Shown: positions 45,442 through 63,978 of the stretch, piece by piece
Layout of the letters: each line of letters begins with the position of its first letter
Position numbering within the stretch: the stretch's first letter is position 1
IMG/VR virus record: IMGVR_UViG_3300030329_002226
Location: 1-64,000 of that record
DNA: 64,000 nucleotides
DNA from: an uncultured virus (IMG/VR IMGVR_UViG_3300030329_002226)
Lineage: Duplodnaviria > Heunggongvirae > Uroviricota > Caudoviricetes
Strand: one strand, 5' to 3'
Notes under the pieces: generated by a model
The model's input: only the letters and a program-made list of their open reading frames with translations
Databases searched by the model: none
What the model was told of the DNA's origin: nothing
Translations under genes and position numbers: made by a program

Positions 45442-45465
45442 TCTTAATTATTTTATTTATATTGA

Positions 45466-47766
45466 TTATCCAATATCTCTTATCATTACACCATATTCAT
45501 CATTTGCAACTGTTCCTTTAAATTTAATGAATACTTCGTCAGCGTCTCTATATACTTGTGGATAAACTGTCGAATAAGCTGGTGTATTGGCATTTGGACT
45601 ATCGGAAGCTACTTGATATACTTCTACCATACACGATGTTCCTGCAGCTCCTGCTCCTATTAAAGTAGTAGTTGTACAATCAAATATTGTATATCCTCCA
45701 GCAACTGTTCTATCAATACCTGATGTAGAATCTGTAAGATTCCCATTAAATGCACCAACTGAACCTGAAGCTAATGCTACTGTATATACACCAGAAGAAT
45801 CTGATACACTTATTCCAGCACCTGCTTGTACCGCCGCTGCACCTACTGTAGTACCTGTTGCATTACTAATTGCTATTGTTCCACTACCTGTTATAGTACC
45901 TCCTGTTATAGGTGCTGTAGTTGCAATACTTGTTACAGTACCACCACTATCAGTGTCTGACCAAGGAACGTTAACTACTAAGTTATCACTAGCATCAACT
46001 TGAACTTTATATGTTCTACCGGATGTAGTAGAAGAAGTATTTGCTGCTACACTTTGTGTTCCATCTACATTAGCGTTAAATGTAGTAGAACTTAACGAAA
46101 GACCTGTACCCGCTGTATATGTGGTATTTGTGTCTGTAGAGGCTATTGTCATTTCAGTAGCACTATTACGAGTTAACGTAACATTACTACCTGCTGTAAA
46201 TTGTAAAGTAGTATCTGTTCCACTACTAGCATCTAAAGTTAAATCTACATCACTACCGTCAGTAGCAAAATTCATACTATAAGTAGTATTGTCATTATCT
46301 GGTGTTACCCATGTTGCATCACCACGTAAGAATGTACTAGCACTACCACCTGTTGGAACGTGACCTACATTAGTAGATCCTGCATAAGCAAATGATTGAA
46401 CTGTTACAGAACCTGTAGCCCCTGTGTTAGATGTTATTGCATTTCCTGTAGAACCACTTACAGCATTACCTGATGTTAAAGCTACAACACCTTCATCAGA
46501 TTGAACAATAACCCAATCATTTACATCTGAAGCTCCTTCTGCTGCTGCTTCTTTACATATTACAGAGTCACCAGCATCTAAGGTTACAGATCCATAAAAA
46601 CTACCAGAAGTTGTTACTACATAGTAATCACCTACAGATATTGCTACTCTTGAAGCACCAGTAGTAAGATTACCTCCTCCGTCAATTGCACCTGTGCCAG
46701 CATTAAATCCATCTTTAAAAGTTAAACCTCCAGAAACAAGTCCATCAACATATCCTTTAGATGCAGCATCTGTAGAAGCAGAAACAGTGTCAATACCTTG
46801 AATACGTCCTGTACCACTTAAAGTTATATCACCACCACCAACTGTTAAATCCCCAACTATACTAACATCTGTTGGAAGATCAACAGTTATTGTGCCACCT
46901 GATTCTTCTACTGTTACTCTAGTAGTTGCTCCACCAGCTATTGTTACTGTATCTGTAGAACCTGTGCTTGGTACTAAATTTATATCAGCTGTATTAGTTC
47001 CATCACTACTTGTTAAATCATAAGTAGTATTGTCATTAGTATCTGTCCATGGTACATTTACTACTAATTGATTACTAGAGTTATCAGTTATACCATATGT
47101 TCTGGAAGCGGTTTCAGTTTTGCTTTCTGCCGCTGGAGTAGAACCTCTTGCATATCTTAATTTACCTAACCCTAATGTAGCAGTGTTCATAGCGTTATAA
47201 GTAGTATCACCTGGAGATGTTAATGCTAATATAAATGGATCACCTGTGGTACCTGCTCCTGATAGATTAGTACCAGCTGTACCATTAGCCATTGTAACTT
47301 TTAAATATTTATTGCTACTATTTAATGTTTTATCATCATTATCATCATCTCTTATTATCCATTCACTCATTTCACTACCAGTCGCTGGTGCGCTGTTAGT
47401 TATAGTAACTGCTCCTGTAGCTGCACTAACTGTTATTCCTGTACCAGCTACAACTGATGTTACACCTGTGTTTGTTAATAAAAACTCTCCTGAACCTGTT
47501 ATAGGATTGGAACCTGAGTTCATTGCAACACTTATTCCTGTTCCTGTTGCAATTCCTACAGAAGTAACTGTACCGGTGGTTGAACTAGTACCAAGGGCTA
47601 TCCAAGATCCACCTTCACCATACTTTACTTGATTATTTGTTGTGTCATAATAAAGCTGACCATCTGCGGGAGTTCCAGCAGCACCATCATTTAACTGATT
47701 TTCTAATACAGGTTGTGTTAGTTGGTTTTTATTAAACGCAACATCATTTAAAAAATTTATTGCCAT
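45466..47766 (-). CDS. Tail fibre/spike protein
   Basis: Gly/Thr-rich GTVTSV repeats, LVVNVPW twice; shares a domain and the M-x-INFL start with the long fibre. Confidence 0.7.
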   Translation of the reverse strand: MAINFLNDVAFNKNQLTQPVLENQLNDGAAGTPADGQLYYDTTNNQVKYGEGGSWIALGTSSTTGTVTSVGIATGTGISVAMNSGSNPITGSGEFLLTNTGVTSVVAGTGITVSAATGAVTITNSAPATGSEMSEWIIRDDDNDDKTLNSSNKYLKVTMANGTAGTNLSGAGTTGDPFILALTSPGDTTYNAMNTATLGLGKLRYARGSTPAAESKTETASRTYGITDNSSNQLVVNVPWTDTNDNTTYDLTSSDGTNTADINLVPSTGSTDTVTIAGGATTRVTVEESGGTITVDLPTDVSIVGDLTVGGGDITLSGTGRIQGIDTVSASTDAASKGYVDGLVSGGLTFKDGFNAGTGAIDGGGNLTTGASRVAISVGDYYVVTTSGSFYGSVTLDAGDSVICKEAAAEGASDVNDWVIVQSDEGVVALTSGNAVSGSTGNAITSNTGATGSVTVQSFAYAGSTNVGHVPTGGSASTFLRGDATWVTPDNDNTTYSMNFATDGSDVDLTLDASSGTDTTLQFTAGSNVTLTRNSATEMTIASTDTNTTYTAGTGLSLSSTTFNANVDGTQSVAANTSSTTSGRTYKVQVDASDNLVVNVPWSDTDSGGTVTSIATTAPITGGTITGSGTIAISNATGTTVGAAAVQAGAGISVSDSSGVYTVALASGSVGAFNGNLTDSTSGIDRTVAGGYTIFDCTTTTLIGAGAAGTSCMVEVYQVASDSPNANTPAYSTVYPQVYRDADEVFIKFKGTVANDEYGVMIRDIG

Positions 47767-47773
47767 TTCTTGT

Positions 47774-48466
47774 TTAATTTAAATAAGCAGTTCCAGCAAA
47801 TGCGGCTGAAAAGGTTATTGTTAGTTGTGTGTTTGATATATATTTTACTTCGCCAAATATGACGATGTCATTATTGTTTATTACTGTTACAGAAGGATAT
47901 GGTCCCCATCTACCTTCATGATCTATTGTCCATAACGTGTTAGAAGCATGTGTAAATACTCCTGTTCCTCCATCTGCATCAGATAAAGAAAATTCTGCGA
48001 TATCATAGTATCTATCATTAGTGACAATTCCGCTTCCTCCTATATAACTTAATCCTAAAGTATATGAGTCCGCAAAACTTCCTGGACTTGTATACGATGT
48101 TATAGTATAGTGACCAAATGTAGAAATTGAATTTTGTTCACTTATTATTATTTGATTACCTACTAAATAATTAACAAATGCCACTACATTTTGGCCGGAG
48201 CGATCTTTTATAGCTAAATCTAAAGAAGTTATATTAGCTAAGGGCGTACCATCCGCAACTCCAGTAAATGTTCCAGTTGTAGGTAATGAAGCTACAAACT
48301 TAAATACCATCTGAGCAGATACAGATATCTTACCTTTTGTATTTAAATAATTAGCTACAGCTTCTGCTGTGAAATTTTTAGTAGACCTATTTGAAGAGTC
48401 GGTTCCAATCCACGCGTCTTGATCCTGAACTTCTGAGTCTCTAGGATAGGAATTAATTCTAGGCAT
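47774..48466 (-). CDS. Tail-associated protein
   Basis: N-terminus related to the 48479 ORF; C-terminal WTIDH...PSVTV...GTAYLN domain. Confidence 0.5.
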   Translation of the reverse strand: MPRINSYPRDSEVQDQDAWIGTDSSNRSTKNFTAEAVANYLNTKGKISVSAQMVFKFVASLPTTGTFTGVADGTPLANITSLDLAIKDRSGQNVVAFVNYLVGNQIIISEQNSISTFGHYTITSYTSPGSFADSYTLGLSYIGGSGIVTNDRYYDIAEFSLSDADGGTGVFTHASNTLWTIDHEGRWGPYPSVTVINNNDIVIFGEVKYISNTQLTITFSAAFAGTAYLN

Positions 48467-48478
48467 CTGTTAATTTAT

Positions 48479-48943
48479 TTATGAATATACTCTTATTTCA
48501 AGGGCTCCTGCTGTTATTCTATCATCAGCCCCGTTTGTTTTGAATGTTATAACTGAACTACTCGTTCTAGTCCACATTACCATCTGATTTGGTTCTCCAT
48601 CTCCAGGATTAACAAATACCATGGTTTTTAAATTAGTAAAAGGAGTACCAGAATTAGTAACAGTGTATACTCCAGCACCTGTTCTAGCCCATGTCATTGT
48701 ACCTGTAATAGTATTTTGTAAAACTGTAACGGTAGGAGCTGCTCCAGCTGCTTGACTCATTATACCTGAATATAAAGTATATCCTAAAGTTCCAGAATTA
48801 GTAGCTATATCAGCAATTTGTTTTATTGTGAAGTTCCTAGTCTTATTAGTATCACCTGCTACATTAGGATCTGCTAGTTCTGTTCCCAAAACTAGGTCAC
48901 TTGCGGAAGGAGTACCTGTAGGATAAGCGGTTATTTCTGCCAT
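48479..48943 (-). CDS. Tail-associated protein
   Basis: YP...DLVLGT...TRNFTI N-terminus; RTGAGVY...EIRVY C-terminus. Confidence 0.5.
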   Translation of the reverse strand: MAEITAYPTGTPSASDLVLGTELADPNVAGDTNKTRNFTIKQIADIATNSGTLGYTLYSGIMSQAAGAAPTVTVLQNTITGTMTWARTGAGVYTVTNSGTPFTNLKTMVFVNPGDGEPNQMVMWTRTSSSVITFKTNGADDRITAGALEIRVYS

Positions 48944-48954
48944 TTGTGTTATTT

Positions 48955-49203
48955 TTATTTATTTTTACTTTGAGGTTTGGTTCCTTTACCATATCCACCT
49001 CGGTTTTGTGATGTTTTTACAAATCTTTTCTTAGTATGATCGTAATCTTTGTCTATTAACCAGTTTGTTCCATGTTTTTTAGCAGCTTTGCGTCTTTTTC
49101 GCTGATTTTCTGCTTTTTTACGTCTTCTATCTGGAGTTTTTGCTGCGGCAAGATCTCTTTTAGCCTTAGCTTTTGCTGCTTTTGGACTTAATTTTTGAGA
49201 CAT
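48955..49203 (-). CDS. Small very basic protein with minimal HNH-like DYDH...NR motif
   Basis: Lys/Arg-rich; motif by eye. Confidence 0.45.
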   Translation of the reverse strand: MSQKLSPKAAKAKAKRDLAAAKTPDRRRKKAENQRKRRKAAKKHGTNWLIDKDYDHTKKRFVKTSQNRGGYGKGTKPQSKNK

Positions 49204-49206
49204 GTC

Positions 49207-49542
49207 TTATTTATCTTCTCCCCATTGAGGCATAGGAATTGAACGCTGTTTTTTGTATCTATCCGCATGAGCAGATAAAAAGTTTTTTACGTTTTTACTA
49301 AAATTCTTAAATTTTTGTACAAAACGGTTTGCAGGAATGTTAACTGCAGGTTGTAAAGGCTTAGGAATATAGTCTGCCCCTACCAATGTAGAGTCATTTA
49401 CTGGTCTAGCTTGTGGTCTAGTAGCGTCGTGCTTTGCTCTTTCAGCTGCATTTGCTAATGCTTCTGCTTTTGCATCTGCATATTTACCGTAAGTCTCCTG
49501 ATATATTTCCTCATCTGTTTGTTTTGCAGGATGTTTTCTCAT
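49207..49542 (-). CDS. Hypothetical protein with N-terminal HPAKQ
   Basis: ORF track. Confidence 0.5.
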   Translation of the reverse strand: MRKHPAKQTDEEIYQETYGKYADAKAEALANAAERAKHDATRPQARPVNDSTLVGADYIPKPLQPAVNIPANRFVQKFKNFSKNVKNFLSAHADRYKKQRSIPMPQWGEDK

Positions 49543-49976
49543 TTTTTAATGTTTTTAATAATTGGACCGAAATCTTTAGAATAGTTTAATATATAATCAA
49601 TGTTTTCTTTTGAAGGACCCATAGGTTTATTTGGATTAGAATATCTTTTTAAATTATCAAAAGCTTGTTTACTACCACCTTTATTCCAACCCTTAGGCAT
49701 TGAACTAGGATATTTAAGTTTATTTTCTAAATTTAGTCTTCTTTGAATTGTTGCTTTTATACTCTGGTTAATTTTTGAACCTATATTTCCAAAGTTAACA
49801 GTACTTCCTTTCCAGAAATTAGTTGATGGAGTTTTTAACCAACTAACCCCCCTACCTATAGGTAACATAGAAGCTATAGTACCTAATGCTCTAGGAATTC
49901 CTTTCTTTACTTTATGCCAAGTACCGGCATGATCTAATTGAGTGAGTTTAGTTTGTTTAAGTGGATGTGATTTCAT
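49539..49976 (-). CDS. Basic hypothetical protein with N-terminal HPLKQ; first gene of the late arm
   Basis: ORF track. Confidence 0.5.
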   Translation of the reverse strand: MKSHPLKQTKLTQLDHAGTWHKVKKGIPRALGTIASMLPIGRGVSWLKTPSTNFWKGSTVNFGNIGSKINQSIKATIQRRLNLENKLKYPSSMPKGWNKGGSKQAFDNLKRYSNPNKPMGPSKENIDYILNYSKDFGPIIKNIKK

Positions 49977-50002
49977 CTTTTTTTACTTTAAGTGTCTATA
50001 TA

Positions 50003-50031
50003 TATCCTTACAGGTTTATCAAGAAATTTAC
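50003..50031 (-). promoter_or_regulatory. Putative middle/late promoter, GTAAA-N10-AACCTGTAAGGATA, at the head of the late arm
   Basis: Same spacing, variant 3' element. Confidence 0.55.
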
Positions 50032-50287
50032 ATAAAATGTGACAAAAGCCATTTATTTATATATATCTAATCCTAGATATTATACTTAGTATAATATCAT
50101 AAGGGTATTACTTATAGAGGGATATGGGGTTACTACCTATTTTTGAGACGAGCTTTGTAAAAGGAAAATCGTTTTGTTTTTGCCGGGTTGCCCTTGTTTT
50201 TAGGATTTTGGCATTAAGGTTTCAGCTTTGATCGTGATTACCGTAGGGGTTTTAGACTTTTTTCTACTACTACTATCTCGCGCGACT

Positions 50288-50320
50288 CACGGACTTATAT
50301 TCTATTCTATTCGATACTAT
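50288..50320 (+). promoter_or_regulatory. Putative early promoter 1, CACGGACTTA-N15-GATACTAT
   Basis: 7 copies with exact 15-nt spacer. Confidence 0.7.
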
Positions 50321-50344
50321 CTATAATATGTTTGGTGAATACCA

Positions 50345-50377
50345 CACGGACTTATCTAATATTAATATAGATAATAT
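50345..50377 (+). promoter_or_regulatory. Putative early promoter 2, CACGGACTTA-N15-GATAATAT
   Basis: Exact consensus. Confidence 0.75.
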
Positions 50378-50417
50378 AATTGAGTTTTAAAATAAATATT
50401 AATTAAATAATTTAACT

Positions 50418-50681
50418 ATGAAAAAACCACAAATTAAAACCAAAACAAGTACTAATGAACTACAAACTAAAAGGTTTGTTATTAGAAAATCATTAATAGG
50501 TTCAAATACAATTATAGTATTTATGAATCATAAAAATGAAGAATGTCGATACAATCATGACTTAGTATACAATCAATTAAAAGATAAATTCGAGTCAATG
50601 AATTGTTTCCAGAAGTACAAAAGTTATACTAATTCTAAAAATCTACCTAAATTTGTTAGAGAATTAAAATCAATAGTATAA
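50418..50681 (+). CDS. Early protein, paralog A
   Basis: Strongly similar to 51524-51772 (TKRFVIRKSLIG...YNHD.VYNQLK...YTN..NLP.FVREL). Confidence 0.75.
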   Translation: MKKPQIKTKTSTNELQTKRFVIRKSLIGSNTIIVFMNHKNEECRYNHDLVYNQLKDKFESMNCFQKYKSYTNSKNLPKFVRELKSIV

Positions 50682-50688
50682 TTAGTCC

Positions 50689-50722
50689 AAAAGGAGGTAA
50701 CTTCGGTTATCTCCTTTTTTTT
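50689..50722 (+). terminator. Intrinsic terminator
   Basis: GGAGGTAAC-TTCG-GTTATCTCC followed by T8. Confidence 0.85.
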
Positions 50723-50741
50723 AACCCTTTGTGGCGACTAT

Positions 50742-50774
50742 CACGGACTTATACTAATTTATTATAGATAATAT
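50742..50774 (+). promoter_or_regulatory. Putative early promoter 3
   Basis: CACGGACTTA-N15-GATAATAT. Confidence 0.75.
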
Positions 50775-50818
50775 AATTGAGAAATTTTAAATATTTATTA
50801 ACTAAAAAATTTATAACT

Positions 50819-50995
50819 ATGTCTAAATATAAAATTCAAAACTCAACAATAAAAACAACTATCAATTTATTAACTAACAAACATATTAATATTAAAACCA
50901 ATAATAATATTATATATATAATTAAAAACCCTTTTAATATTAATATACCAAAATTATTAACTAATAATTATATACCATTTAAATTAATTAAATAA
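50819..50995 (+). CDS. 58-aa early protein encoded by a G-less ORF
   Basis: ATG in TAACT-ATG context (track start at TTG 50777 abuts the promoter); the only G is in the ATG. Confidence 0.55.
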   Translation: MSKYKIQNSTIKTTINLLTNKHINIKTNNNIIYIIKNPFNINIPKLLTNNYIPFKLIK

Positions 50996-51013
50996 CCTTT
51001 AAAACCAATAACT

Positions 51014-51166
51014 ATGAACTATGAATTCACATTTGAGTTTAAAAACTCAGAACCTTTATATCTTACTCATACGAGTAATATATTAGATAACGAATTACTT
51101 CAATTTATGATAGAAATTGATGTAGACTTTAAAAACATTATTAACTTTAAAACAAATAAACTATGA
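51014..51166 (+). CDS. 50-aa early protein
   Basis: Manual translation MNYEFTFEFKNSEPLYLTH...; ATGA overlap with the next gene. Confidence 0.55.
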   Translation: MNYEFTFEFKNSEPLYLTHTSNILDNELLQFMIEIDVDFKNIINFKTNKL

Positions 51167-51408
51167 ATTACAATCAATTTGAAGAAAAATTACTAGATGA
51201 GTTTAGTTACACATTCTTTGACTATGCACCTGGTGATGAAGATGGAGGTTTTGATCCCTTTATTCAGTTTACTATTAAAACACTGTTTGACTCTGGTGTA
51301 ACAGACACTGTGAAGATGATGGAAATAATAGAACCGATGCTAATTAAAAGAGATAATCACCTCGGTAAGCTGCTAGATGAAGGAATACTACTTGCTCGTC
51401 ACCAATAG
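51163..51408 (+). CDS. Acidic early protein
   Basis: ORF track; followed by a terminator. Confidence 0.65.
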   Translation: MNYNQFEEKLLDEFSYTFFDYAPGDEDGGFDPFIQFTIKTLFDSGVTDTVKMMEIIEPMLIKRDNHLGKLLDEGILLARHQ

Positions 51409-51420
51409 TAGTAATAAAGA

Positions 51421-51445
51421 AGGGTTCTTCGGAGCCCTTTTTTTT
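51421..51445 (+). terminator. Intrinsic terminator
   Basis: AGGGTTC-TTCG-GAGCCCT followed by a T-run. Confidence 0.85.
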
Positions 51446-51464
51446 ATCCTCTTTATATGACTTT

Positions 51465-51497
51465 CACGGACTTATATTAATTAATATTAGATAATAT
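51465..51497 (+). promoter_or_regulatory. Putative early promoter 4
   Basis: CACGGACTTA-N15-GATAATAT. Confidence 0.75.
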
Positions 51498-51523
51498 ATA
51501 TGAACTTTAAAAATTAATACACT

Positions 51524-51772
51524 ATGAAGACTAAAATTAAATTAAATCAACTAGCAACAAAGAGATTTGTTATTAGAAAATCATTAATTGGTAAAAACAC
51601 AGTAATAACTTTTACTAATAAGAAAAATGAGAAATGTACTTATAATCATGACATAGTATATAATCAACTAAAAACTAAGTTTGATAATATGATGTGTTTT
51701 AATAAGTATGGTAATTATACTAACACTAATAACCTTCCAAGGTTTGTTAGAGAATTAGATAAAATAGTATAA
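51524..51772 (+). CDS. Early protein, paralog B
   Basis: Paralog of 50418-50681. Confidence 0.75.
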   Translation: MKTKIKLNQLATKRFVIRKSLIGKNTVITFTNKKNEKCTYNHDIVYNQLKTKFDNMMCFNKYGNYTNTNNLPRFVRELDKIV

Positions 51773-51780
51773 TTCAATAG

Positions 51781-51823
51781 TGACATTAGGGTGTTATTAT
51801 ATAATATTAATACCCTTTTGTCA
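51781..51823. promoter_or_regulatory. 43-bp palindromic operator-like site, TGACA-WWAGSS-N21-SSCTWW-TGTCA
   Basis: Same geometry as 56581-56623; may also act as a hairpin terminator. Confidence 0.55.
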
Positions 51824-51849
51824 CTTTTTATTCTCCTTGTATTAACTCT

Positions 51850-51882
51850 CACGGACTTATATATAATTTCTATGGATAATAT
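51850..51882 (+). promoter_or_regulatory. Putative early promoter 5
   Basis: CACGGACTTA-N15-GATAATAT. Confidence 0.75.
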
Positions 51883-51966
51883 ATATAAATTAGTTGGATA
51901 ATGTGAGATAGTGCATTAGAAATACTAATAAATTTAAATAACTAAACAAAATAACACTTTTAAACT

Positions 51967-52110
51967 ATGAACTTAGAAGAATTAATATCAAACTTATTGA
52001 TTAAAGAAATAAAAGAGAAGTTTCCATTTAATGAAGAAACTGATTGTAAAAAGAAATATAATGAAATCATACAAGATTACTTATATGAAACAATAATAAC
52101 TAAACTATAA
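51967..52110 (+). CDS. 47-aa early protein
   Basis: Manual translation MNLEELISNLLIKEIKEKFPF... Confidence 0.5.
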   Translation: MNLEELISNLLIKEIKEKFPFNEETDCKKKYNEIIQDYLYETIITKL

Positions 52111-52113
52111 ATT

Positions 52114-52329
52114 ATGACTAGAGAAGATAAACTTCATGAAGAATTCCATGAAGAAGCGAGAGAATTAATGGAAAAACTTATTGATAAATACAATCTTGAT
52201 AAGTATACTAGTGAAAGAAAAAGAAATAATCCATTTCCAATGTCACTAGATGAATTCTTATATGAATATGTATCTATTTTTAATAAAAGAGAAATAGATG
52301 AAATTAATAACTTAATAAACAAATTTTAA
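52114..52329 (+). CDS. Early hypothetical protein
   Basis: ORF track. Confidence 0.6.
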   Translation: MTREDKLHEEFHEEARELMEKLIDKYNLDKYTSERKRNNPFPMSLDEFLYEYVSIFNKREIDEINNLINKF

Positions 52330-52334
52330 ATCTA

Positions 52335-52559
52335 ATGAGTGTAACTAAAGAAATAGATAGGATTTCAAGTGAAATCGCAAAGGAATTAGAACCGAAGTTA
52401 TTTGAAATGATATCTTGGGGATTAGATAAAGACTTCATCATTAAGAAAAATGGTGAAAAAATGAATTTAAGTGATGTAGAAGGTGATGAGTTTATAGAAC
52501 TTATTACTTACATTGCTAATAAATCAATAGAAAAATTAACTAAAAGTATAAATAAATAG
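52335..52559 (+). CDS. Early hypothetical protein
   Basis: ORF track. Confidence 0.6.
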   Translation: MSVTKEIDRISSEIAKELEPKLFEMISWGLDKDFIIKKNGEKMNLSDVEGDEFIELITYIANKSIEKLTKSINK

Positions 52560-52633
52560 TGAAAGACGTAAGACGAGGTGCACTTATTAAAGTAGTGGTA
52601 ACACGGCGCGGGTTGATTAGCTAAAACAACTAA

Positions 52634-52666
52634 CACGGACTTATAAACAAAAACTTTAGATAATAT
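52634..52666 (+). promoter_or_regulatory. Putative early promoter 6
   Basis: Consensus; ends 4 nt before the ATG at 52671. Confidence 0.75.
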
Positions 52667-52670
52667 TAAT

Positions 52671-52901
52671 ATGGAAAATTTATATGAACAATTATTACCT
52701 GATGTTAAGTTTGAACTTAAGAAAAATAAAGGTAAATATAAAAATGCAGTGAAGCAAGTGATTGCTAAACTACACGTCTATCATAACTACTCACAGATGA
52801 GTATGGATGATATTAAAACTTTAATAACTTTTTCTGATACTAACTGTTACGAGTGGACAGCGAGTGATTGGAAATATGGAGAAAAACTATTTAAACAATG
52901 A
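52671..52901 (+). CDS. Early hypothetical protein
   Basis: ORF track. Confidence 0.6.
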   Translation: MENLYEQLLPDVKFELKKNKGKYKNAVKQVIAKLHVYHNYSQMSMDDIKTLITFSDTNCYEWTASDWKYGEKLFKQ

Positions 52902-53050
52902 AGCATAAAGTATTTATTAAAATAACAGATATACTAATAAAATCATTAGTGGCAAGTCTTGCCGCTCTATTTGTAGCTGGTTGGTTATTTTTGGTATTTG
53001 GTTTTATATCAGGTGTCATTGAACCACCTTCATTTGGTATATATAAATAG
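52898..53050 (+). CDS. 50-aa single-TM membrane peptide
   Basis: Manual translation MKHKVFIKITDILIKSLVASLAALFVAGWLFLVFGFISGVIEPPSFGIYK. Confidence 0.55.
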   Translation: MKHKVFIKITDILIKSLVASLAALFVAGWLFLVFGFISGVIEPPSFGIYK

Positions 53051-53408
53051 TATTAGACGAGTAGCTTAATAGGATTATTGGAAGTTAGCGCGTAAATCTG
53101 CAAGACAGTAGCTCACTAACTCATATATAATCACGTAAGTGAATTGCTAATACTAAACCGGAAGCGCACCGCTATCTGACGAGATTGACCAGGGAATCCC
53201 ATGGTAATATCTCCGGACGATATGAGCGACTCGAGGTTGGTAGGTTGTGGTTGAACCAGTAAACGTTTTCACGAGCTGGTTACTACAACCGATAACTAGG
53301 TTTGGATATTGGAGAAGGCATAAGACTCGGCGGGAGTATTCCTCAGAGCGCTGATTATCCCAATAACTACTGACGAGTAAAGAGGTTCGATTCCTCTTCT
53401 AGTTACTA
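53048..53408 (+). ncRNA. Structured non-coding RNA array ending in a tRNA-like T-arm and acceptor stem
   Basis: GC-enriched non-coding stretch with four closed stem modules (see findings). Confidence 0.55.
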
Positions 53409-53419
53409 AATTATAAATT

Positions 53420-53809
53420 ATGAATTGGAAACAAGAACAAGAAGTATTGGAAAATGCTTTTGCAAGAAGATTACTAATTGAATATGGTATTCAAGAAGTA
53501 ACTACGCAAAGACAAGCTAAGAATGGTACAAGAGAATTTGAATTTCCTGTATCTGCTCACAAGCAATGGAATAGGAAAGATAGACTTAGATTAGCTTGTT
53601 TTAAAACAGGATATGTAAGAAATCAAAATTCTTGCGCATCTCCTTATCAACTAAATCCTCAATATAAAAGAACAAAGAAATGGGTTTTCTTAACTAAAGA
53701 TGGATTAAAAACTAAAGAATACATAACAATTTCGCGAGCAAAGATCTATTCAGGTATGGCTCGATTAGTTTTTATGTTAGAATTTTATAAAAGAAATTAT
53801 AAGATATGA
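53420..53809 (+). CDS. Early hypothetical protein
   Basis: 129-aa ORF. Confidence 0.65.
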   Translation: MNWKQEQEVLENAFARRLLIEYGIQEVTTQRQAKNGTREFEFPVSAHKQWNRKDRLRLACFKTGYVRNQNSCASPYQLNPQYKRTKKWVFLTKDGLKTKEYITISRAKIYSGMARLVFMLEFYKRNYKI

Positions 53810-53940
53810 ATAAATGTAAGTTTTGTAATAGTACAGCTTTGGTATATCACTATTATATTTGTGATTCTAAATGTGAAGAGTGTGGAGATTGGCAAGAAGG
53901 AGAAGAGTTTAACTTACACGGACTTAATAACAAACACTAA
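53806..53940 (+). CDS. 44-aa zinc-ribbon peptide
   Basis: Manual translation MNKCKFC...KCEECGDWQ...; ATGA overlap with the previous gene. Confidence 0.5.
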   Translation: MNKCKFCNSTALVYHYYICDSKCEECGDWQEGEEFNLHGLNNKH

Positions 53941-53949
53941 CGATAATAT
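53917..53949 (+). promoter_or_regulatory. Putative early promoter 7
   Basis: Consensus; ends 4 nt before the ATG at 53954. Confidence 0.75.
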
Positions 53950-53953
53950 AATT

Positions 53954-54193
53954 ATGCAAAAAATAAAATTTACATCTAAAACAACACTTAGAATAACTAA
54001 TAAACATGGTTATTCTATTAAATACAAAGGTTATAACGTAGGAGAATTACCTAATTCTTTTGGTTTTAAATACAAGTTTAATGGATATGATGATGATGGA
54101 TATGAAACTTTTAAAGAAGGTAAAGATAAATGGTTTAATTATAAAGGTCTAACTTGGGTAATAGATAAAGACCATTGGAGTAAATCTTTATAA
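53954..54193 (+). CDS. Early hypothetical protein (start revised from 53861)
   Basis: ATG immediately after promoter 7. Confidence 0.6.
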   Translation: MQKIKFTSKTTLRITNKHGYSIKYKGYNVGELPNSFGFKYKFNGYDDDGYETFKEGKDKWFNYKGLTWVIDKDHWSKSL

Positions 54194-54194
54194 T

Positions 54195-54332
54195 ATGGAT
54201 AGAAACGATGATTTTTTAAATCCACATGAGCAACCAGAAGATGAATGTGTAGTATGTGGTAAACCAATGGATTTCTGGTATTCTAAAAGTGATACATGTA
54301 GTGATGATTGCTTTAGAGCTAGTTTAATATAA
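54195..54332 (+). CDS. 45-aa zinc-finger peptide (CxxC...CSxxC)
   Basis: Manual translation MDRNDDFLNPHEQPEDECVVCGKPM...TCSDDCFRASLI. Confidence 0.55.
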   Translation: MDRNDDFLNPHEQPEDECVVCGKPMDFWYSKSDTCSDDCFRASLI

Positions 54333-54386
54333 ATCTACTGGAGTTTTTCATAGTTATAACAGTAGATTAGGTCTGTACAGACAACA

Positions 54387-54433
54387 GAGCGTGCTACGGT
54401 ACTAAGGTGCGGGTTCGATTCCCGCCACGCTCT
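54387..54433 (+). ncRNA. Armless tRNA-like minihelix (acceptor stem and T-arm only)
   Basis: GAGCGTG/CACGCTC stem, GCGGG-TTCGATT-CCCGC arm, 15-nt connector. Confidence 0.6.
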
Positions 54434-54557
54434 CTAATGGGTAAAAGATAAGAGTATGAAAAACCTCAAATAAGTTTATCCAACCGCATATGTATGTGGT
54501 GTCGAAGATTTGATCACTGGTACGTACGGAAGTGTATTACATATTGCGGTAAAATAT

Positions 54558-54630
54558 TGCGGGATAGAGCAGTGGCCAGCTCGCGAGCCTCATAAGCTCG
54601 AGGTCGTAGGTTCGAATCCTACTCCCGCAA
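54558..54630 (+). tRNA. trnM: tRNA-Met (CAT), no encoded CCA
   Basis: Full cloverleaf: TGCGGGA/TCCCGCA, D-arm GAGC/GCTC, anticodon CGAGC-CTCATAA-GCTCG, T-arm GTAGG-TTCGAAT-CCTAC. Confidence 0.9.
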
Positions 54631-54645
54631 CTAAATAAATAAATT

Positions 54646-54975
54646 ATGAGTGATTCAAAGAAAAAATATGAAGAAATGGTAGAAGAGGGAGAAATCCCTA
54701 AATCTAGCGACATAAGACCAACACATGAATATAAATCTATGACTGAAGTAATACAAGAGGTTTATAAAGAAAAGTTTGAACGAACTAAATATATTTGGGT
54801 GTTAGACTTTACTGATGGTAAAATATATAGATATAATGTAAGAGCATTATGTAATGAAGATAATGAATGGAATCCTGATTCAGAAAGTTGTGAAGCATTT
54901 TTATTAGGTGCAGGTCATAAGATAAATAGTATTGAATGGATGGTAACTAATAATGAGACATGGGAAACAGATTAG
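54646..54975 (+). CDS. Hypothetical protein
   Basis: ORF track. Confidence 0.6.
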   Translation: MSDSKKKYEEMVEEGEIPKSSDIRPTHEYKSMTEVIQEVYKEKFERTKYIWVLDFTDGKIYRYNVRALCNEDNEWNPDSESCEAFLLGAGHKINSIEWMVTNNETWETD

Positions 54976-55178
54976 AAAGATTATTTACTGGATTTATTCT
55001 TATTGGACTTAGTTTCTTTTGTGGTGTGTTCTTTACATTTTACAAAATAGACCAAAGAACTTGGAATGAAAATATATTAAAAGCTAGAGATATGGAAACT
55101 AGATACTTAAACTATCCAGAGAAAAGATGTTATAAACAAGATGATTTAAAAAGAATAATATACGGAAAAAATAAATAA
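54960..55178 (+). CDS. Single-TM membrane protein
   Basis: Hydrophobic N-terminal segment. Confidence 0.55.
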   Translation: MGNRLERLFTGFILIGLSFFCGVFFTFYKIDQRTWNENILKARDMETRYLNYPEKRCYKQDDLKRIIYGKNK

Positions 55179-55255
55179 AATGAAAAATAAAAAAACAAAA
55201 AAACGAGAAATGGTTCTTTTATATTCTCAATTAAATAAAATAAATAAAAAATAAA

Positions 55256-55414
55256 ATGAGAAATATATATGATAGAATATTTGGTGAGGAATTTATGAAC
55301 TCACCAGTTCAAGGAACAAAAGAAGAAGCTAAATTTATGGAGCGAAAGTTAAATGAATTTAGAAAGAAACAAGAAATGGATATTAATATACTTAAAAAAA
55401 TTAAAGGATTATGA
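55256..55414 (+). CDS. 52-aa hypothetical protein
   Basis: Manual ORF; ATGA overlap with the next gene. Confidence 0.45.
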   Translation: MRNIYDRIFGEEFMNSPVQGTKEEAKFMERKLNEFRKKQEMDINILKKIKGL

Positions 55415-55602
55415 GAAAATTTAATAGATATAAAGAAAATTTACGTAGAGTTGGTAATGCTATATGGTCTTACTCAACACACGTAGCAACAATAGATTAC
55501 CCTGATAAACTAATACAACATGGTTGGTGGAGTGTAACTACACAGAAACATATTAACTATGTAGCAAGAGAATTAGGTTTAACTATTGAAAAAGATTACT
55601 AA
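55411..55602 (+). CDS. Small phage protein (SY.THVA...WSVTTQKHIN type)
   Basis: ORF track. Confidence 0.6.
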   Translation: MRKFNRYKENLRRVGNAIWSYSTHVATIDYPDKLIQHGWWSVTTQKHINYVARELGLTIEKDY

Positions 55603-55617
55603 TTTAAAATTAATAAA

Positions 55618-56067
55618 ATGAAAAAAATACTTACCGAAGAATTGATTCTTGAAAAACTACTAGAAGAAAAAGAACTTAAAGAACCAGGAGATATAGATAC
55701 TCCTGAGATGCAAGAAATAATATGCGAGTTTTATGGTTCTGAAATTAGACATGATTGGAGTAATTGTAATATGTATTTCACTACTGTTAGTACAGCTGAT
55801 GGGTATGAATTATATCTTGCAGCAGAAGATGAATCATCTCCTTATTATGACCAAGACGTATACTATTATGAATCAGATTGGTTTGAAAAACTACCTGATT
55901 GTATTGTAAGTGGTTTTATGATTCATGTAGATGAGCATGCTATGGAAGATTATGGATTTGAAGATGCTATAGCTTCAGTGTATGAAGATTATTGGAGAGA
56001 TATGTATAATGAAGTAGAAGGTGAATTAATGGAAGAAGGATATGATTGGCCAGAAGATGAAAAATAA
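55618..56067 (+). CDS. Highly acidic protein (possible DNA mimic)
   Basis: Very Asp/Glu-rich with many aromatic residues. Confidence 0.6.
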   Translation: MKKILTEELILEKLLEEKELKEPGDIDTPEMQEIICEFYGSEIRHDWSNCNMYFTTVSTADGYELYLAAEDESSPYYDQDVYYYESDWFEKLPDCIVSGFMIHVDEHAMEDYGFEDAIASVYEDYWRDMYNEVEGELMEEGYDWPEDEK

Positions 56068-56258
56068 ATTAAGAGAACTTAAGAAATATATTCCTTTATT
56101 TTTAGTTATTTCACTTATTATATTATATACTATAATAGTAAATATACTTGTACCTTTAAATTAAAAACCTATGAGAAGAAATATATATAAACATTTAATA
56201 TCTACTAACTATATGGGTATAACCGATAGAATAAAACAATTTAAAAAGAGAAAACACA

Positions 56259-56537
56259 ATGACAGAAAAAGAAATGCATAAATTAGCTGATATAATAATA
56301 GATAAATTAGTTGAAAAACAAATGGCGCATGATGATGAGTTTAGACAAGATCTAGCTGAGATGATGAAAGAAAATCCCGGATTAGAAATAGGAGAAATAA
56401 CTCAACAAGAATTAATAGAACAAGAATTAAATTTCTTACAAGACTTATTAAAAGAACAAGAAGAAAAAGAGAATTATCGTGACGCCTCAATAACCTTAAT
56501 TAAAATAGAAAAATTTAAAAAGAAATATAATCTATAA
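56259..56537 (+). CDS. Protein with C-terminal UVR-like helical hairpin
   Basis: EEKENYRDASITLIKI pattern. Confidence 0.5.
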   Translation: MTEKEMHKLADIIIDKLVEKQMAHDDEFRQDLAEMMKENPGLEIGEITQQELIEQELNFLQDLLKEQEEKENYRDASITLIKIEKFKKKYNL

Positions 56538-56580
56538 TCTTGCAAGCAATGTGTATAGCATAATCACTATTATGCATATA

Positions 56581-56623
56581 TGACAATAGGGATTATAATT
56601 ATAAAAATAACAGGCTAATGTCA
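56581..56623. promoter_or_regulatory. 43-bp palindromic operator-like site overlapping the HTH gene start codon
   Basis: TGACAATAGGG-N21-GGCTAATGTCA. Confidence 0.6.
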
Positions 56624-57238
56624 CACGAAAGAAACATGAAATGGTTAAATGATAGACAAATTATTTATAGAAGAGATCCTATTAATGATAAACCTACTAT
56701 TGAGACAGATACATATAGATATTATGAGCAAGGCACACATGAATGTTATACACTATTTAACACCAGTGCTAAAATACCTACTTATAAATCATTAAAATGG
56801 CATTTTCTTGTATTATACTATTTAAATAGTGACATTTTGTCACCTGAAGAAGAGATAATAACTTTATTTAAATTTATAGCTAAAAAAGAGAATGGATTTG
56901 TTACATTTTTTATTAGTAAACAAAAACTAGAAGAAATAATACAAAACGTACTGACAATAGGTGGTGAACCACCAATAAATAGAAAAAGAAAAATAATATT
57001 TAAAGACTTTACAGGATTATCTACTAAAGAAAAACTATCAATTGTAGGAAAATTAATAGGTAGATCAAGCATAGATAAAGAAATGATATATGAAACTATG
57101 TTAGATTTAAATGACTGGGGTAAGAAAATTACTATTAGTCGTATTGCTGGTTTACTTAATTGTTCCGTGAGAACAATACATAGAAATATGGGAGATGAAT
57201 TAAAACGAGAAAAAGTAAGATTAAATGAAGAAATATAA
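56618..57238 (+). CDS. DNA-binding protein with C-terminal HTH (regulator or replication initiator)
   Basis: KITISRIAGLLNCSVRTIHRNM HTH. Confidence 0.7.
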   Translation: MSHERNMKWLNDRQIIYRRDPINDKPTIETDTYRYYEQGTHECYTLFNTSAKIPTYKSLKWHFLVLYYLNSDILSPEEEIITLFKFIAKKENGFVTFFISKQKLEEIIQNVLTIGGEPPINRKRKIIFKDFTGLSTKEKLSIVGKLIGRSSIDKEMIYETMLDLNDWGKKITISRIAGLLNCSVRTIHRNMGDELKREKVRLNEEI

Positions 57239-57986: not shown

Positions 57987-57995
57987 GTTAAGAAT

Positions 57996-58024
57996 GTAAA
58001 TTTAAAAATAAACATGTAATTATA
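57996..58024 (+). promoter_or_regulatory. Putative middle/late promoter, GTAAA-N10-AACATGTAATTATA, for the replication operon
   Basis: Same family and spacing as the minus-strand copies. Confidence 0.65.
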
Positions 58025-58049
58025 TTAATAACGCTTAAAACAAACACGA

Positions 58050-59290: not shown

Positions 59291-59292
59291 CA

Positions 59293-59610: not shown

Positions 59611-59613
59611 TAT

Positions 59614-63826: not shown

Positions 63827-63830
63827 AATT

Positions 63831-63977: not shown

Positions 63978-63978
63978 A

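What the first reader, a model, noticed from the sequence alone, without database searches (positions are those of the whole stretch)
50782..51015. A G-less early gene: 234 nt whose only G is in the start codon
Seen: from 50782 to 51015 the plus strand has one G (50821, in ATG), and 50822-51015 is 194 nt with none, although C is present and neighbouring genes use G freely. At an assumed ~15% G the chance is roughly 0.85^194, about 1e-14. The frame still stays open for 58 codons (MSKYKIQNSTIKTTINLLTNKHINIKTNNNIIYIIKNPFNINIPKLLTNNYIPFKLIK) despite many off-frame TAA triplets. It has its own early promoter and the same AACT-ATG context as its neighbours. Inference: selection for an mRNA that escapes a G-dependent host defence (GTP depletion, G-containing-site RNases, or CmdT-like ADP-ribosylation of GA), so an antidote can still be made. 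A C-free template strand is an alternative explanation, relevant if the phage modifies cytosine. A non-coding role such as an unwinding element is also possible.
Basis: partly seen in the sequence, partly recalled or inferred. Interest (0 to 1): 0.88.

Follow-up and report, generated by a model that had tools for sequence, protein, structure and literature searches.

The report
Conserved phage gene written without G
A small early gene of marine flavobacterial phages is a real, conserved, well-folding protein gene whose message is kept free of the base G by natural selection, which has no precedent that I could find and hints at an unknown G-dependent process that this message must escape.

Summary
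Window 50822-51015 is 194 nt without G; the next-longest G-free run is 62 nt.

It is a real gene:
- ORF 50819-50995 (58 aa) has 0 in-frame and 19 off-frame TAA.
- It sits behind a five-copy promoter-like motif, in a terminator-flanked three-gene unit.
- It belongs to an unannotated family found in marine phage contigs.
- AlphaFold gives a ferredoxin-like fold at pLDDT 95.7.

In 44 distinct homologous ORFs (44-100% aa identity), G is 27 of 7362 bases and 22 ORFs have none beyond ATG. G is also excluded at synonymous sites:
- 2 G-bearing synonymous codons against 186 expected.
- AAA 323 to AAG 0.
- The other third positions vary freely among A, C and T.

RNA-structure minimisation does not explain this, and a G-containing paralogue exists.

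So selection acts on the nucleotide. Why it does is inferred: most likely escape from G-dependent RNA cleavage or modification. Interest is high and the mechanism is open.

The parts
50688..50724 (+). Intrinsic-terminator hairpin (UUCG loop followed by a U run) that closes the preceding early unit
   Evidence: RNA fold -16.3 kcal/mol, z -6.1, 0 of 200 shuffles as good. The simple terminator scan did not call it.
50742..50777 (+). Promoter-like element CACGGACTTAT-N14-GATAATAT(AAT) of the G-less unit. It contains a TATAAT at 50772-50777.
   Evidence: There are 5 exact copies on the + strand (50345, 50742, 51465, 51850, 52634) against 0 expected in 100 shuffles. The motif is shared by 9 other IMG/VR records. 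Use as a promoter is inferred. The generic sigma-70 scan was uninformative: 22 hits against 16 expected.
50782..50818 (+). G-free predicted 5' leader ending in AACT before the ATG
   Evidence: Read directly from the sequence. The transcription start is inferred from the TATAAT position and was not mapped.
50819..50995 (+). G-less ORF of 58 codons plus TAA, encoding MSKYKIQNSTIKTTINLLTNKHINIKTNNNIIYIIKNPFNINIPKLLTNNYIPFKLIK. It uses 12 amino-acid types including Met1.
   Evidence: Open-frame statistics. Homologues. AlphaFold2 pLDDT 95.7, pTM 0.78, strand-helix-strand-strand-helix-strand. Composition.
50822..51015 (+). The 194-nt G-free run. It reaches from just after the start codon to the G of the next gene's ATG.
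51014..51166 (+). Second gene of the unit: a 50-aa acidic protein of unknown function with normal G content (14 G in 150 nt)
   Evidence: ORF list. A homologue lies directly downstream of the G-less ORF in L063. No Pfam or PHROG hit.
51163..51408 (+). Third gene of the unit: an 81-aa protein of unknown function
   Evidence: ORF list. A 76% identical homologue is found in L042 without a G-less gene upstream.
51418..51448 (+). Intrinsic-terminator hairpin closing the three-gene unit
   Evidence: RNA fold -12.9 kcal/mol, z -3.7, 0 of 200 shuffles as good.
50418..50681 (+). Flanking early gene, an 87-aa 'RFVIRKSLIG' family paralogue. The second copy is at 51524-51772.
   Evidence: All 9 related records carry 2-3 copies. 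In the closest relative, G009, the two copies are adjacent and the three-gene unit between them is missing.

Best explanation
SHOWN. Window 50819-50995 is a genuine early protein-coding gene. It has its own promoter-like element and is the first gene of a terminator-flanked three-gene accessory unit. It encodes a 58-aa lysine-rich protein with no acidic residues and a ferredoxin-like fold (strand-helix-strand-strand-helix-strand). The protein belongs to a conserved, unannotated family in the early regions of marine phages whose portal resembles those of Flavobacterium, Maribacter and Cellulophaga podophages.

SHOWN STATISTICALLY. Purifying selection on the nucleotide itself keeps the sense strand of this family free of G:
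- G is excluded at synonymous third positions and in the short flanking untranslated stretches.
- The protein is confined to the roughly 11 amino acids that have G-free codons.
- Neither protein function nor RNA-structure minimisation explains this.

INFERRED. The unit of selection is the transcript, and each G carries a cost. The most likely reason is that G is required by an RNA-cleaving or RNA-modifying activity. Candidates are a housekeeping G-preferring endonuclease, a host toxin or defence RNase or RNA-modifying enzyme, or the phage's own early-mRNA shut-off nuclease. A message without G would then stay intact and translatable when other messages are inactivated, keeping this accessory protein, possibly a counter-defence or host-takeover factor, in production.
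For: Gene reality:
- The frame is open at p of about 0.003 against shuffles, with 0 in-frame and 19 off-frame TAA.
- 24 homologous proteins at 53-97% identity, and 7 representative clusters in an exhaustive HMMER search.
- Invariant and near-invariant columns in the alignments.
- pLDDT 95.7. Generic ferredoxin-like matches, best Z 8.1, rmsd 2.0 over 57 residues to 4zoq_A.

Selection against G:
- 44 distinct ORF DNAs from 54 loci carry 27 G in 7362 bases. Per ORF the counts are 0 G in 22, 1 in 18, 2 in 3 and 3 in 1.
- G-bearing synonymous codons: 186.4 expected from 13,201 flanking same-strand codons, 2 observed.
- Codon counts: AAA 323 to AAG 0 (background 24% AAG), CAA 91 to CAG 0, TTG 0, AGY 0.
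- Synonymous sites are otherwise free to vary. Minimum parsimony changes are N 51, T 46, I 71 and L 47, against K 0 of 301 cells and Q 0 of 72 cells, on a tree of 6.87 substitutions per site.
- Among 1471 distinct ORFs of 40 aa or more in these loci, family ORFs called from the family start codon have 0-1.8% G. The rest have a median of 17% and a 5th percentile of 9%.
- 9 of 9 strain substitutions in an independent study stay within A, C and T.

Not the protein: a paralogue in the same contig (L061 2577-2783) keeps the family sequence but has 13 G in 204 nt and uses E, D, V, R and M.

Not RNA structure: natural messages fold at -6.98 kcal/mol. G-free synonymous recodes fold at -5.18, and recodes with G allowed at -6.27. 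Only 14 of 44 natural messages are weaker than their G-free recodes.

Early, accessory character:
- 43 of 44 have GATAATA within 70 nt upstream, a median of 21 nt before the ATG.
- The gene is absent from 9 of 9 promoter-sharing relatives and 5 of 5 cultured relatives, with a positive control of 5 of 5.
Against: - No G-dependent RNase or RNA-modifying enzyme of the host or the phage was identified. All early neighbours lack any Pfam or functional PHROG annotation.
- No direct evidence of transcription, translation or message stability. The one RNA run held only short, 85-90% alike pieces on the ORF.
- All other phage messages contain G, so immunity of a single message needs a special role for its protein, and that role is unknown.
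- Half of the family tolerates 1-3 Gs, 22 of 27 of them in a GA context. The constraint is therefore quantitative, and a GA-specific enzyme such as CmdT is not favoured.
- RNA-level and DNA- or transcription-level selection cannot be separated from sequence alone, because the G-free strand is always the sense strand by construction.
- The 44 ORFs are related, so counts of cells overstate independence. The parsimony event counts are the safer figures.
Confidence: 0.4

Rival explanations
1. Transcription-level economy. A C-free template strand lets RNA polymerase copy the gene almost without GTP, so the protein is made fast or at all when GTP is scarce, for example in a starved, stringent-response host or under guanine-nucleotide depletion.
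For: - The G-free stretch begins at the promoter-like -10 element and ends at the next G-containing signal, either the next ATG or the next promoter.
- Most members have near-leaderless messages starting about 21 nt after GATAATA.
- The cost per G would be quantitative, which fits the 0-3 tolerated Gs.
Against: - Every message still needs the G of its AUG.
- Translation itself consumes GTP.
- All other early genes driven by the same motif use G normally: 16-17% beyond codon 10.
- No GTP-depleting function was recognised in the phage.
Confidence: 0.15
2. Translation-level cause. The message is kept as an unstructured A/U/C-only RNA, without internal AUG, GUG, UUG or Shine-Dalgarno-like sites, for very efficient ribosome loading in Bacteroidota, which do not rely on Shine-Dalgarno pairing.
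For: - The family folds far more weakly than other small same-strand ORFs, at -0.041 against -0.161 kcal/mol per nt.
- Other genes in these loci also show G depletion around the start: 7.6% at -20..0 and 11.8% at +3..+30.
- G-free 5' leaders are common here.
Against: - Allowing G at synonymous sites does not raise predicted structure (-6.27 against an observed -6.98).
- Natural messages are, if anything, more structured than random G-free recodes; only 14 of 44 are weaker.
- The general depletion near starts is mild and gone by +30 nt, whereas here it spans the whole gene and beyond.
Confidence: 0.1
3. DNA-level cause. The strand asymmetry itself (no C on the template strand, no G on the coding strand) is what is selected. 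Possible reasons are that the phage or host modifies or damages one of these bases, or that a strand-specific DNA-binding or single-strand-specific enzyme acts there.
For: - The asymmetry is total while C stays at 11.8% on the sense strand.
- G-free non-coding runs of 117 nt (G002) and 101 nt (L042) occur in relatives near the early/late divergence point.
Against: - No cytosine- or guanine-modifying enzyme was recognised among the ORFs scanned.
- The template strand still carries G opposite every sense C.
- The boundaries follow the transcription and translation unit.
- Only this one gene per genome is affected.
Confidence: 0.08
4. By-product. An Asn/Ile/Lys-rich protein in an AT-rich genome, plus ordinary codon bias or a local mutation bias, happens to need no G.
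For: - The genome has 31% G+C.
- The conserved residues are N, I, L, K and T, all of which have G-free codons.
- Single ORFs with zero G-bearing synonymous codons do occur by chance: about 20 of the 1261 non-family ORFs with an expected count of 3 or more.
Against: - 2 observed against 186 expected G-bearing synonymous codons over 44 diverged members.
- 0 K or Q synonymous changes against 72 at the two-fold pyrimidine-ending sites N, F, Y and H.
- No strong preference among A, C and T at third positions.
- Neighbours with the same promoter-like motif use AAG, CAG and AGT.
- A paralogue uses E, D, V, R and M.
- C is not depleted, which argues against transcription-associated deamination of the exposed strand.
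Confidence: 0.03
5. Not a gene: an AT-rich non-coding element such as an unwinding element or leader, or an assembly artefact.
For: 12.4% G+C locally. Low-complexity appearance.
Against: - Protein-level conservation with synonymous variation.
- pLDDT 95.7.
- Open frame p of about 0.003.
- Identical or near-identical sequence in independent assemblies and runs.
Confidence: 0.01

Closest known systems
G-less cassette of in vitro transcription assays (engineered; recalled from memory, Sawadogo and Roeder 1985; only papers that use such cassettes turned up in the listing)
   Same: A promoter followed by a few hundred bases with no G on the non-template strand, giving a transcript that can be made without GTP and resists G-specific RNase T1.
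   Different: That cassette is an artificial, non-coding tool. This is a natural protein-coding gene family, conserved under selection, and it still carries the G of its AUG.
ACA-less messages in the MazF single-protein-production system, and target-site avoidance by toxin-resistant mRNAs (recalled from memory; not retrieved here)
   Same: A message escapes a sequence-specific mRNA interferase by lacking its recognition sequence, so only that protein keeps being made.
   Different: That system is engineered and removes a trinucleotide. Here a whole nucleotide is excluded, naturally, and the attacking activity, if there is one, is unknown.
CmdTAC defence (PMC11618068; abstract and passages read)
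   Same: It is an example of a G-dependent attack on single-stranded mRNA: CmdT ADP-ribosylates the adenine in GA dinucleotides and blocks translation. A G-free message would be immune.
   Different: It was described in E. coli against T-even phages. In this family 22 of the 27 tolerated Gs form GA, so GA does not look like the selected-against unit. No CmdT homologue was sought in hosts.
Restriction-site or palindrome avoidance in phage genomes (established knowledge, recalled)
   Same: Selection removes the sequence that an enzyme needs.
   Different: That avoidance is genome-wide, at the DNA level, and concerns short motifs. Here it is confined to one roughly 200-nt transcription unit, is strand-specific, and concerns a single base.
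Small early accessory or anti-defence proteins such as T7 Ocr or T4 Dmd (recalled)
   Same: Small size, own early promoter, first genes expressed, and patchy presence among close relatives.
   Different: There is no sequence or specific structural similarity. The function of this protein is untested, and the fold is a generic ferredoxin-like domain.
Reduced-alphabet proteins (bioRxiv 10.64898/2026.03.06.710107 and 10.1101/2025.10.29.685319; only the starts of the abstracts were seen, in the listing)
   Same: A compact fold built from about a dozen amino-acid types.
   Different: Those are designed proteins, or database rarities with fewer than 10 types. Here the restriction (12 types, none of G, A, V, D, E, R, C or W) appears to be imposed by a nucleotide constraint on a natural family.

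Membership tests
Protein-coding gene (as opposed to a non-coding element) | Open frame beyond chance, with stops in the other frames | tested here: met
   0 in-frame against 19 off-frame TAA. 14 of 5000 mononucleotide and 12 of 5000 dinucleotide shuffles reached the observed open length.
Protein-coding gene (as opposed to a non-coding element) | Amino-acid conservation with synonymous variation among homologues | tested here: met
   Invariant L, T, N, I and K columns are encoded by 2-4 different codons each. There are 51, 46, 71 and 47 minimum synonymous changes at N, T, I and L.
Protein-coding gene (as opposed to a non-coding element) | Product detected (Ribo-seq, mass spectrometry) | not testable with these tools
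   Only one metatranscriptome run held fragments. The pieces on the ORF were 31-36 nt with 4-5 mismatches.
G-less cassette-like unit | Promoter followed by about 200 nt or more with no G on the non-template strand | tested here: met
   194-nt run behind the promoter-like motif. Runs of 66-211 nt through the ORF mid-point in the 44 distinct ORF DNAs, of which 43 are 111 nt or longer (L059, with two ACG codons, has 66). Promoter activity was not assayed.
G-less cassette-like unit | Transcript fully free of G | tested here: not met
   The AUG always supplies one G. 22 of 44 members carry 1-3 more. One member (L096) has ATA in place of ATG, and its status is unclear.
Ferredoxin-like (strand-helix-strand-strand-helix-strand) fold | Order of secondary-structure elements and structural superposition | tested here: met
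   Model elements E3-6, H8-20, E24-28, E31-36, H43-49, E54-57. Z 8.1, rmsd 2.0 over 57 residues to 4zoq_A, plus HMA, UreE and designed ferredoxin folds. This is a predicted model only, and a shared fold shows no function.
Any curated protein family (Pfam, PHROGs, PDB sequences) | Significant profile or sequence match | tested here: not met
   0 Pfam families. 0 PHROGs. Best PDB profile hit E 3.4. The protein atlas gave no usable hit.
CmdT-type (GA-specific) evasion | GA dinucleotides specifically avoided | tested here: inconclusive
   GA is absent in 22 of 44 members only because G is absent. Of the 27 tolerated Gs, 22 are in GA, which argues against GA as the avoided unit. However, these are mostly N-to-D changes that the protein may favour.
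DNA unwinding element or replication origin | AT-rich on both strands without coding constraint, with repeats or initiator boxes | tested here: not met
   C is kept at 11.8% while G is 0.37%, and coding conservation is clear. Initiator boxes were not searched for.
Phage anti-defence or host-takeover early protein | Early promoter, small size, accessory distribution among close relatives | tested here: met
   Own promoter-like motif in 43 of 44 members. Absent from 9 of 9 promoter-sharing and 5 of 5 cultured relatives. The closest relative, G009, lacks the whole unit.
Phage anti-defence or host-takeover early protein | Demonstrated inhibition of a defence system or host target | not testable with these tools
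   No partner or target was identified.

The most novel reading that the evidence does not exclude
This is the first natural class of one-base-free genes. A phage keeps an entire message free of G because flavobacterial cells, or the phage itself, deploy a G-dependent RNA-level weapon or shut-off that is still undescribed in these hosts. The nucleotide constraint has forced a folded protein into an 11-12-letter amino-acid alphabet. The family could serve as bait to discover that mechanism.
Probability: 0.35. Interest if true: 0.92.

Novelty: categorically new. Interest (0 to 1): 0.86.

Why it matters
Selection is normally seen acting on codons, motifs or structures. Here it appears to remove one of the four nucleotides from a whole gene, and it has done so across a family that has diverged to 44% amino-acid identity.

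If this is confirmed, it would matter in four ways:
1. It points to a G-dependent process at the RNA or transcription level that is strong enough to shape a gene.
2. It provides a natural G-less cassette and a simple recoding experiment to find that process.
3. It gives a natural example of a stable fold encoded with a reduced alphabet imposed from the nucleotide side.
4. It suggests a new, easily computed signature (single-base-free ORFs) for mining phage genomes for genes that must be expressed under attack.

Two full-text searches found no report of a natural guanine-free gene. One methods paper states that long stretches lacking one nucleotide are rare in natural DNA and RNA (PMC6526412, passages).

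Tried and rejected
- DNA similarity to GenBank phages: no match for 50300-52300 or 40000-50000. tblastn of a family member (P0022) against that collection also found nothing; the low-complexity filter may hide matches.
- Single-protein scan of IMG/VR: 200 pattern hits, none confirmed. The alignment-based scan then found 9.
- Weak resemblance to the G-poor N-terminus of an 86-aa ORF in L042: BLASTP E 0.29, not pursued. The 50-aa neighbour showed no similarity to it.
- L097 (a 435-aa bacterial protein with a 20-residue match) was dropped as a false positive. L096 was set aside because no ATG was found; it has ATA at the expected start.
- Generic sigma-70 and terminator scan: 22 promoter-like hits against 16 expected and 0 terminators, so uninformative. 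The hairpins were shown by folding instead.
- Rfam on 49900-54000: no match.
- Fold searches: only generic ferredoxin-like matches, with no functional lead. The protein atlas gave nothing usable.
- The giant 2633-aa virion ORF as a possible injected RNA polymerase: no PDB sequence match and no Pfam or PHROG hit. This remains undecided.
- RNA evidence: metatranscriptome run X20 gave one near-identical 158-nt contig on the neighbouring 87-aa gene and only 31-36-nt pieces with 4-5 mismatches on the G-less ORF. This is not evidence of transcription.
- Other single ORFs with no G-bearing synonymous codons occur at about the chance rate, so the signal is the family-wide consistency and not any one ORF.
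- No complex prediction was run, because I make no binding claim.
- Supplementary files of the papers were not consulted.
Full report
**1. The observation**

The plus strand of window 50782-51015 contains A 122, T 83, C 28 and a single G, at 50821 in an ATG. Positions 50822-51015 form a 194-nt G-free run.
- The next-longest G-free run in the window is 62 nt. The longest C-, A- and T-free runs are 95, 39 and 27 nt.
- G makes up 17.0% of the plus strand in the early region 50401-64000. By my arithmetic a run of 194 has a chance of about 2e-16 per position.
- Even allowing for the local AT-richness (12.4% G+C), the chance that all 28 G/C bases are C is about 7e-12.

It is not an artefact. Two independent metagenome assemblies carry the identical ORF (L052, L053). 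Contigs of a separate 2025 study carry a strain variant with 9 substitutions inside the ORF, all among A, C and T.

**2. Setting**

The window is 64 kb of a 67,276-bp IMG/VR virus record that CheckV rates 100% complete, with 31% G+C.
- Structural and lysis genes lie on the minus strand from 994 to 49976. They include portal, large terminase, GroEL- and GroES-like proteins, a holin, and giant 2633- and 1695-aa ORFs.
- Early and replication genes run on the plus strand from 50418. They include a sigma-like protein, Erf, an exonuclease, a primase/helicase, thymidylate synthase, MazG, a resolvase and ribonucleotide reductase.
- The portal is 51% identical to that of an uncultured podovirus record (MW202828), 45% to Maribacter phage Panino, 43% to Flavobacterium elemoviruses and 33% to Cellulophaga phage phi38:1. 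The host is therefore most likely a marine member of the Flavobacteriia. One family member lies on a contig binned in a Flavobacterium MAG.

The start of the early region carries five exact copies of CACGGACTTAT-N14-GATAATAT, against 0 expected by chance. Nine other IMG/VR records share this motif.

The G-free ORF is the first gene of one such unit:
- motif at 50742;
- ORF 50819-50995;
- a 50-aa acidic ORF at 51014-51166;
- an 81-aa ORF at 51163-51408;
- UUCG-loop terminator hairpins before and after the unit (50688-50724 at -16.3 kcal/mol; 51418-51448 at -12.9 kcal/mol).

That the motif is a promoter is inferred. A generic sigma-70 scan was uninformative. Passages of the phi14:2 preprint state that Cellulophaga baltica RNA polymerase transcribes a fragment carrying the T7 A1 promoter. 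They also state that the phi14:2 middle promoters resemble the -35 and -10 consensus elements of primary sigma factors and were transcribed in vitro by E. coli sigma-70 holoenzyme (10.1101/2020.03.07.982082).

**3. It is a gene**

- The frame has no in-frame TAA, against 5 and 14 in the other two frames. An equally long open frame arose in 14 of 5000 mononucleotide and 12 of 5000 dinucleotide shuffles.
- A word-indexed search of 5.8 billion proteins found 24 relatives at 53-97% identity, of 42-89 aa, none with a Pfam domain or a name.
- An exhaustive HMMER pass over 1.84 billion cluster representatives found 7.
Of the last three, one is a false positive (L097, dropped) and one has ATA where the ATG should be (L096, set aside).
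- With the window this makes 54 loci and 44 distinct ORF sequences.
- Invariant columns (for example L17, L18, T19, N20, I23, N30, I34, N37, K45, L46 and L47 in alignment A1) are encoded by several synonymous codons each. T19 (alignment column 18), for instance, is ACT 22, ACA 12, ACC 9 and ACG 1, and N20 (column 19) is AAC 23 and AAT 21.
- AlphaFold2 on a 60-sequence alignment gives mean pLDDT 95.7 and pTM 0.78, with the element order strand-helix-strand-strand-helix-strand.
- Structure searches give only generic ferredoxin-like matches. The best is Z 8.1, rmsd 2.0 over 57 residues, to a lanthipeptide-protease prodomain, followed by HMA, UreE and designed ferredoxin folds. There is no functional lead.
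- The window protein uses 12 amino-acid types (I 13, N 12, K 9, T 6, L 5 and others) and has no acidic residue.

**4. G-avoidance is conserved and acts on the nucleotide**

- Across the 44 distinct ORFs (44-100% identical to the query protein), G is 27 of 7362 bases outside the start codon (0.37%), while C is 11.8%.
- 22 ORFs have no further G, 18 have one, 3 have two and 1 has three.
- 22 Gs are at codon position 1, 3 at position 2 and only 2 at position 3.
- Residues that need G (D, E, G, A, V, R, C, W, M) are 24 of 2410, against 33.6% in the flanking same-strand ORFs.
- Given the proteins and the codon usage of those flanking ORFs (13,201 codons), 186.4 G-bearing synonymous codons are expected and 2 are seen.
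- Codon counts are AAA 323 to AAG 0 (background 24% AAG), CAA 91 to CAG 0, TTG 0 beside 214 TTA, and no AGY serine.

Because the ORFs are related, I also counted events on a tree of total length 6.87 substitutions per site. The minimum numbers of synonymous changes are 51 (N), 46 (T), 71 (I) and 47 (L). They are 0 in 301 lysine cells and 0 in 72 glutamine cells. So third positions turn over freely among A, C and T but not to G.

Among 1471 distinct ORFs of 40 aa or more in all loci and related genomes, family ORFs called from the family start codon have 0-1.8% G. The remainder have a median of 17% and a 5th percentile of 9%. The G-free run usually continues past the stop codon to the next G-containing signal.

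**5. What does not explain it**

*Protein need.* One contig (L061) carries, 215 nt upstream of its G-free copy, a paralogue with E, D, V, R and M and 13 G in 204 nt. The two proteins are 46% identical over 39 aa (E 9e-8), and the paralogue is 64% identical to other G-free members.

*RNA structure.*
- Natural messages average -6.98 kcal/mol.
- Random G-free synonymous recodes average -5.18, and recodes with background codon usage (G allowed) -6.27.
- Only 14 of 44 natural messages are weaker than their G-free recodes.
- The 234-nt stretch folds no better than shuffles (z -1.39).

*The usual G dip around start codons.* Other genes show 7.6% G at -20..0 and 11.8% at +3..+30, but are back to 16-17% beyond +30.

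*Relic of a G-free origin or a mutation bias.* The tree is saturated at synonymous sites, C is not depleted, and neighbours behind the same motif use G-ending codons.

**6. Distribution**

- 43 of 44 members have GATAATA within 70 nt upstream, a median of 21 nt before the ATG. This implies very short leaders in most members.
- 23 of 42 have another copy within 90 nt downstream.
- 31 of 44 loci also carry the 87-aa 'RFVIRKSLIG' early gene.
- The gene is accessory. None of the 9 records sharing the window's promoter motif has it.
- The closest relative, G009, has the two 87-aa paralogues side by side without the three-gene unit.
- None of 5 cultured relatives has it, and the profile found all 5 of 5 positive controls. 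Those cultured genomes have no base-free run above 83 nt.

**7. How it most likely works**

*Shown:* a real early accessory gene whose sense strand is kept G-free by selection on the nucleotide.

*Inferred:* the selected object is the transcript and each G carries a cost, because exclusion covers coding, synonymous and flanking untranslated positions of one transcription unit yet tolerates 1-3 Gs.

My preferred reading (about 0.4) is that G is needed by an RNA-cleaving or RNA-modifying activity, and that a G-free message therefore stays intact and translatable when others do not. Candidate activities are:
- a G-preferring housekeeping endonuclease;
- a host toxin or defence enzyme;
- the phage's own early-message shut-off.

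CmdT shows that G-dependent attack on mRNA exists: it ADP-ribosylates the A in GA dinucleotides of single-stranded RNA (PMC11618068, abstract and passages). However, 22 of the 27 tolerated Gs here form GA, so a GA-specific enzyme is not favoured.

The rivals are GTP-sparing transcription (0.15), ribosome loading on structure-free RNA (0.10), a DNA-level strand constraint (0.08), a by-product (0.03) and a non-gene or artefact (0.01). The rest is unknown.

There is no direct evidence for expression. The only RNA run gave short, imperfect pieces on the ORF.

**8. Comparison and novelty**

- The nearest analogues are engineered: the G-less cassette and ACA-less messages in MazF-expressing cells. 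Both are recalled from memory and were not retrieved.
- Restriction-site avoidance is conceptually similar, but it acts on motifs, genome-wide, at the DNA level.
- Two full-text searches for natural guanine-free genes or messages found none. A methods paper states that long stretches lacking one nucleotide are rare in natural nucleic acids (PMC6526412, passages).
- The protein family is absent from Pfam, PHROGs and PDB sequences.

I therefore rate the phenomenon as categorically new, with the mechanism open.

Noticed in passing
window 53050-53420: A roughly 370-nt stretch without a convincing ORF between early genes. It has 42% G+C in a 25-30% region, and its 3' end resembles a tRNA T-arm. There was no Rfam match and ARAGORN called no tRNA. 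It may be a structured non-coding RNA.
   Followed up: partly
window 54558-54631: ARAGORN calls a tRNA with a CAT anticodon as tRNA-Met. Because ATA isoleucine codons are used heavily here, it could instead be an AUA-reading tRNA-Ile2. This was not tested.
   Followed up: no
window 50345, 50742, 51465, 51850, 52634 (+); a variant at about 50288: A five-copy early promoter-like motif CACGGACTTAT-N14-GATAATAT is shared by 9 other IMG/VR records. More distant relatives pair a different upstream box (TTACAAACAAAATA) with the same GGATAATATAAT box.
   Followed up: partly
window 50418-50681 and 51524-51772; G001-G009: An 82-101-aa early protein family (…KRFVIRKSLIG…) is present in 2-3 tandem paralogues at the head of the early region in every related record. 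It has no Pfam hit and only a weak match to a PHROG of unknown function.
   Followed up: partly
G002 3454-3570 (L019); L042 1533-1633: Non-coding G-free runs of 117 and 101 nt lie near the early/late divergence region of two relatives. In each, the G-free strand is the sense strand of the next downstream gene.
   Followed up: partly
L096 2583-2724: A family member on a contig binned in a Clostridium MAG has ATA where the ATG is expected (AACTATA), which would make the gene fully G-free up to one GAT. It could be a non-canonical start, a pseudogene or a sequencing error.
   Followed up: partly
L045 2157-2327 (same as G010, reverse strand): A second, apparently unrelated 56-aa early ORF (MQKLINQILTHKN…) has only 2 Gs besides its ATG and no G-bearing synonymous codon (4.4 expected). 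No homologue was found in the other loci held.
   Followed up: partly
L072 3168-3338; L078 473-643; L067 1305-1469: A 54-56-aa ORF family lying directly downstream of the G-free gene in some contigs is also G-poor, at 3.6-4.3% G.
   Followed up: partly
L061 2577-2783: A G-containing paralogue of the family lies in the same contig as a G-free copy. It is a natural control for recoding experiments.
   Followed up: yes
window 2506-10407 (-): A 2633-aa ORF in the structural module has no Pfam, PHROG or PDB sequence match. Whether it is an injected enzyme such as a virion RNA polymerase is unknown.
   Followed up: partly
window 36981-38534 and 30532-31140 (-): The phage encodes GroEL-like (PHROG E 6.6e-137) and GroES-like (E 2e-20) chaperonins.
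   Followed up: no
window 41761-41770: A run of 10 N (a scaffold gap) lies at the junction of two large tail-fibre-like ORFs.
   Followed up: no
window 50996-51444, in runs X11 and X16: Contigs of an independent study join 50996 to 51000 with 50 other letters between them. A second joint links 51003 to 51435 and skips 431 bases, with the sequence between not known. This suggests a strain with a different arrangement just behind the G-free gene.
   Followed up: no
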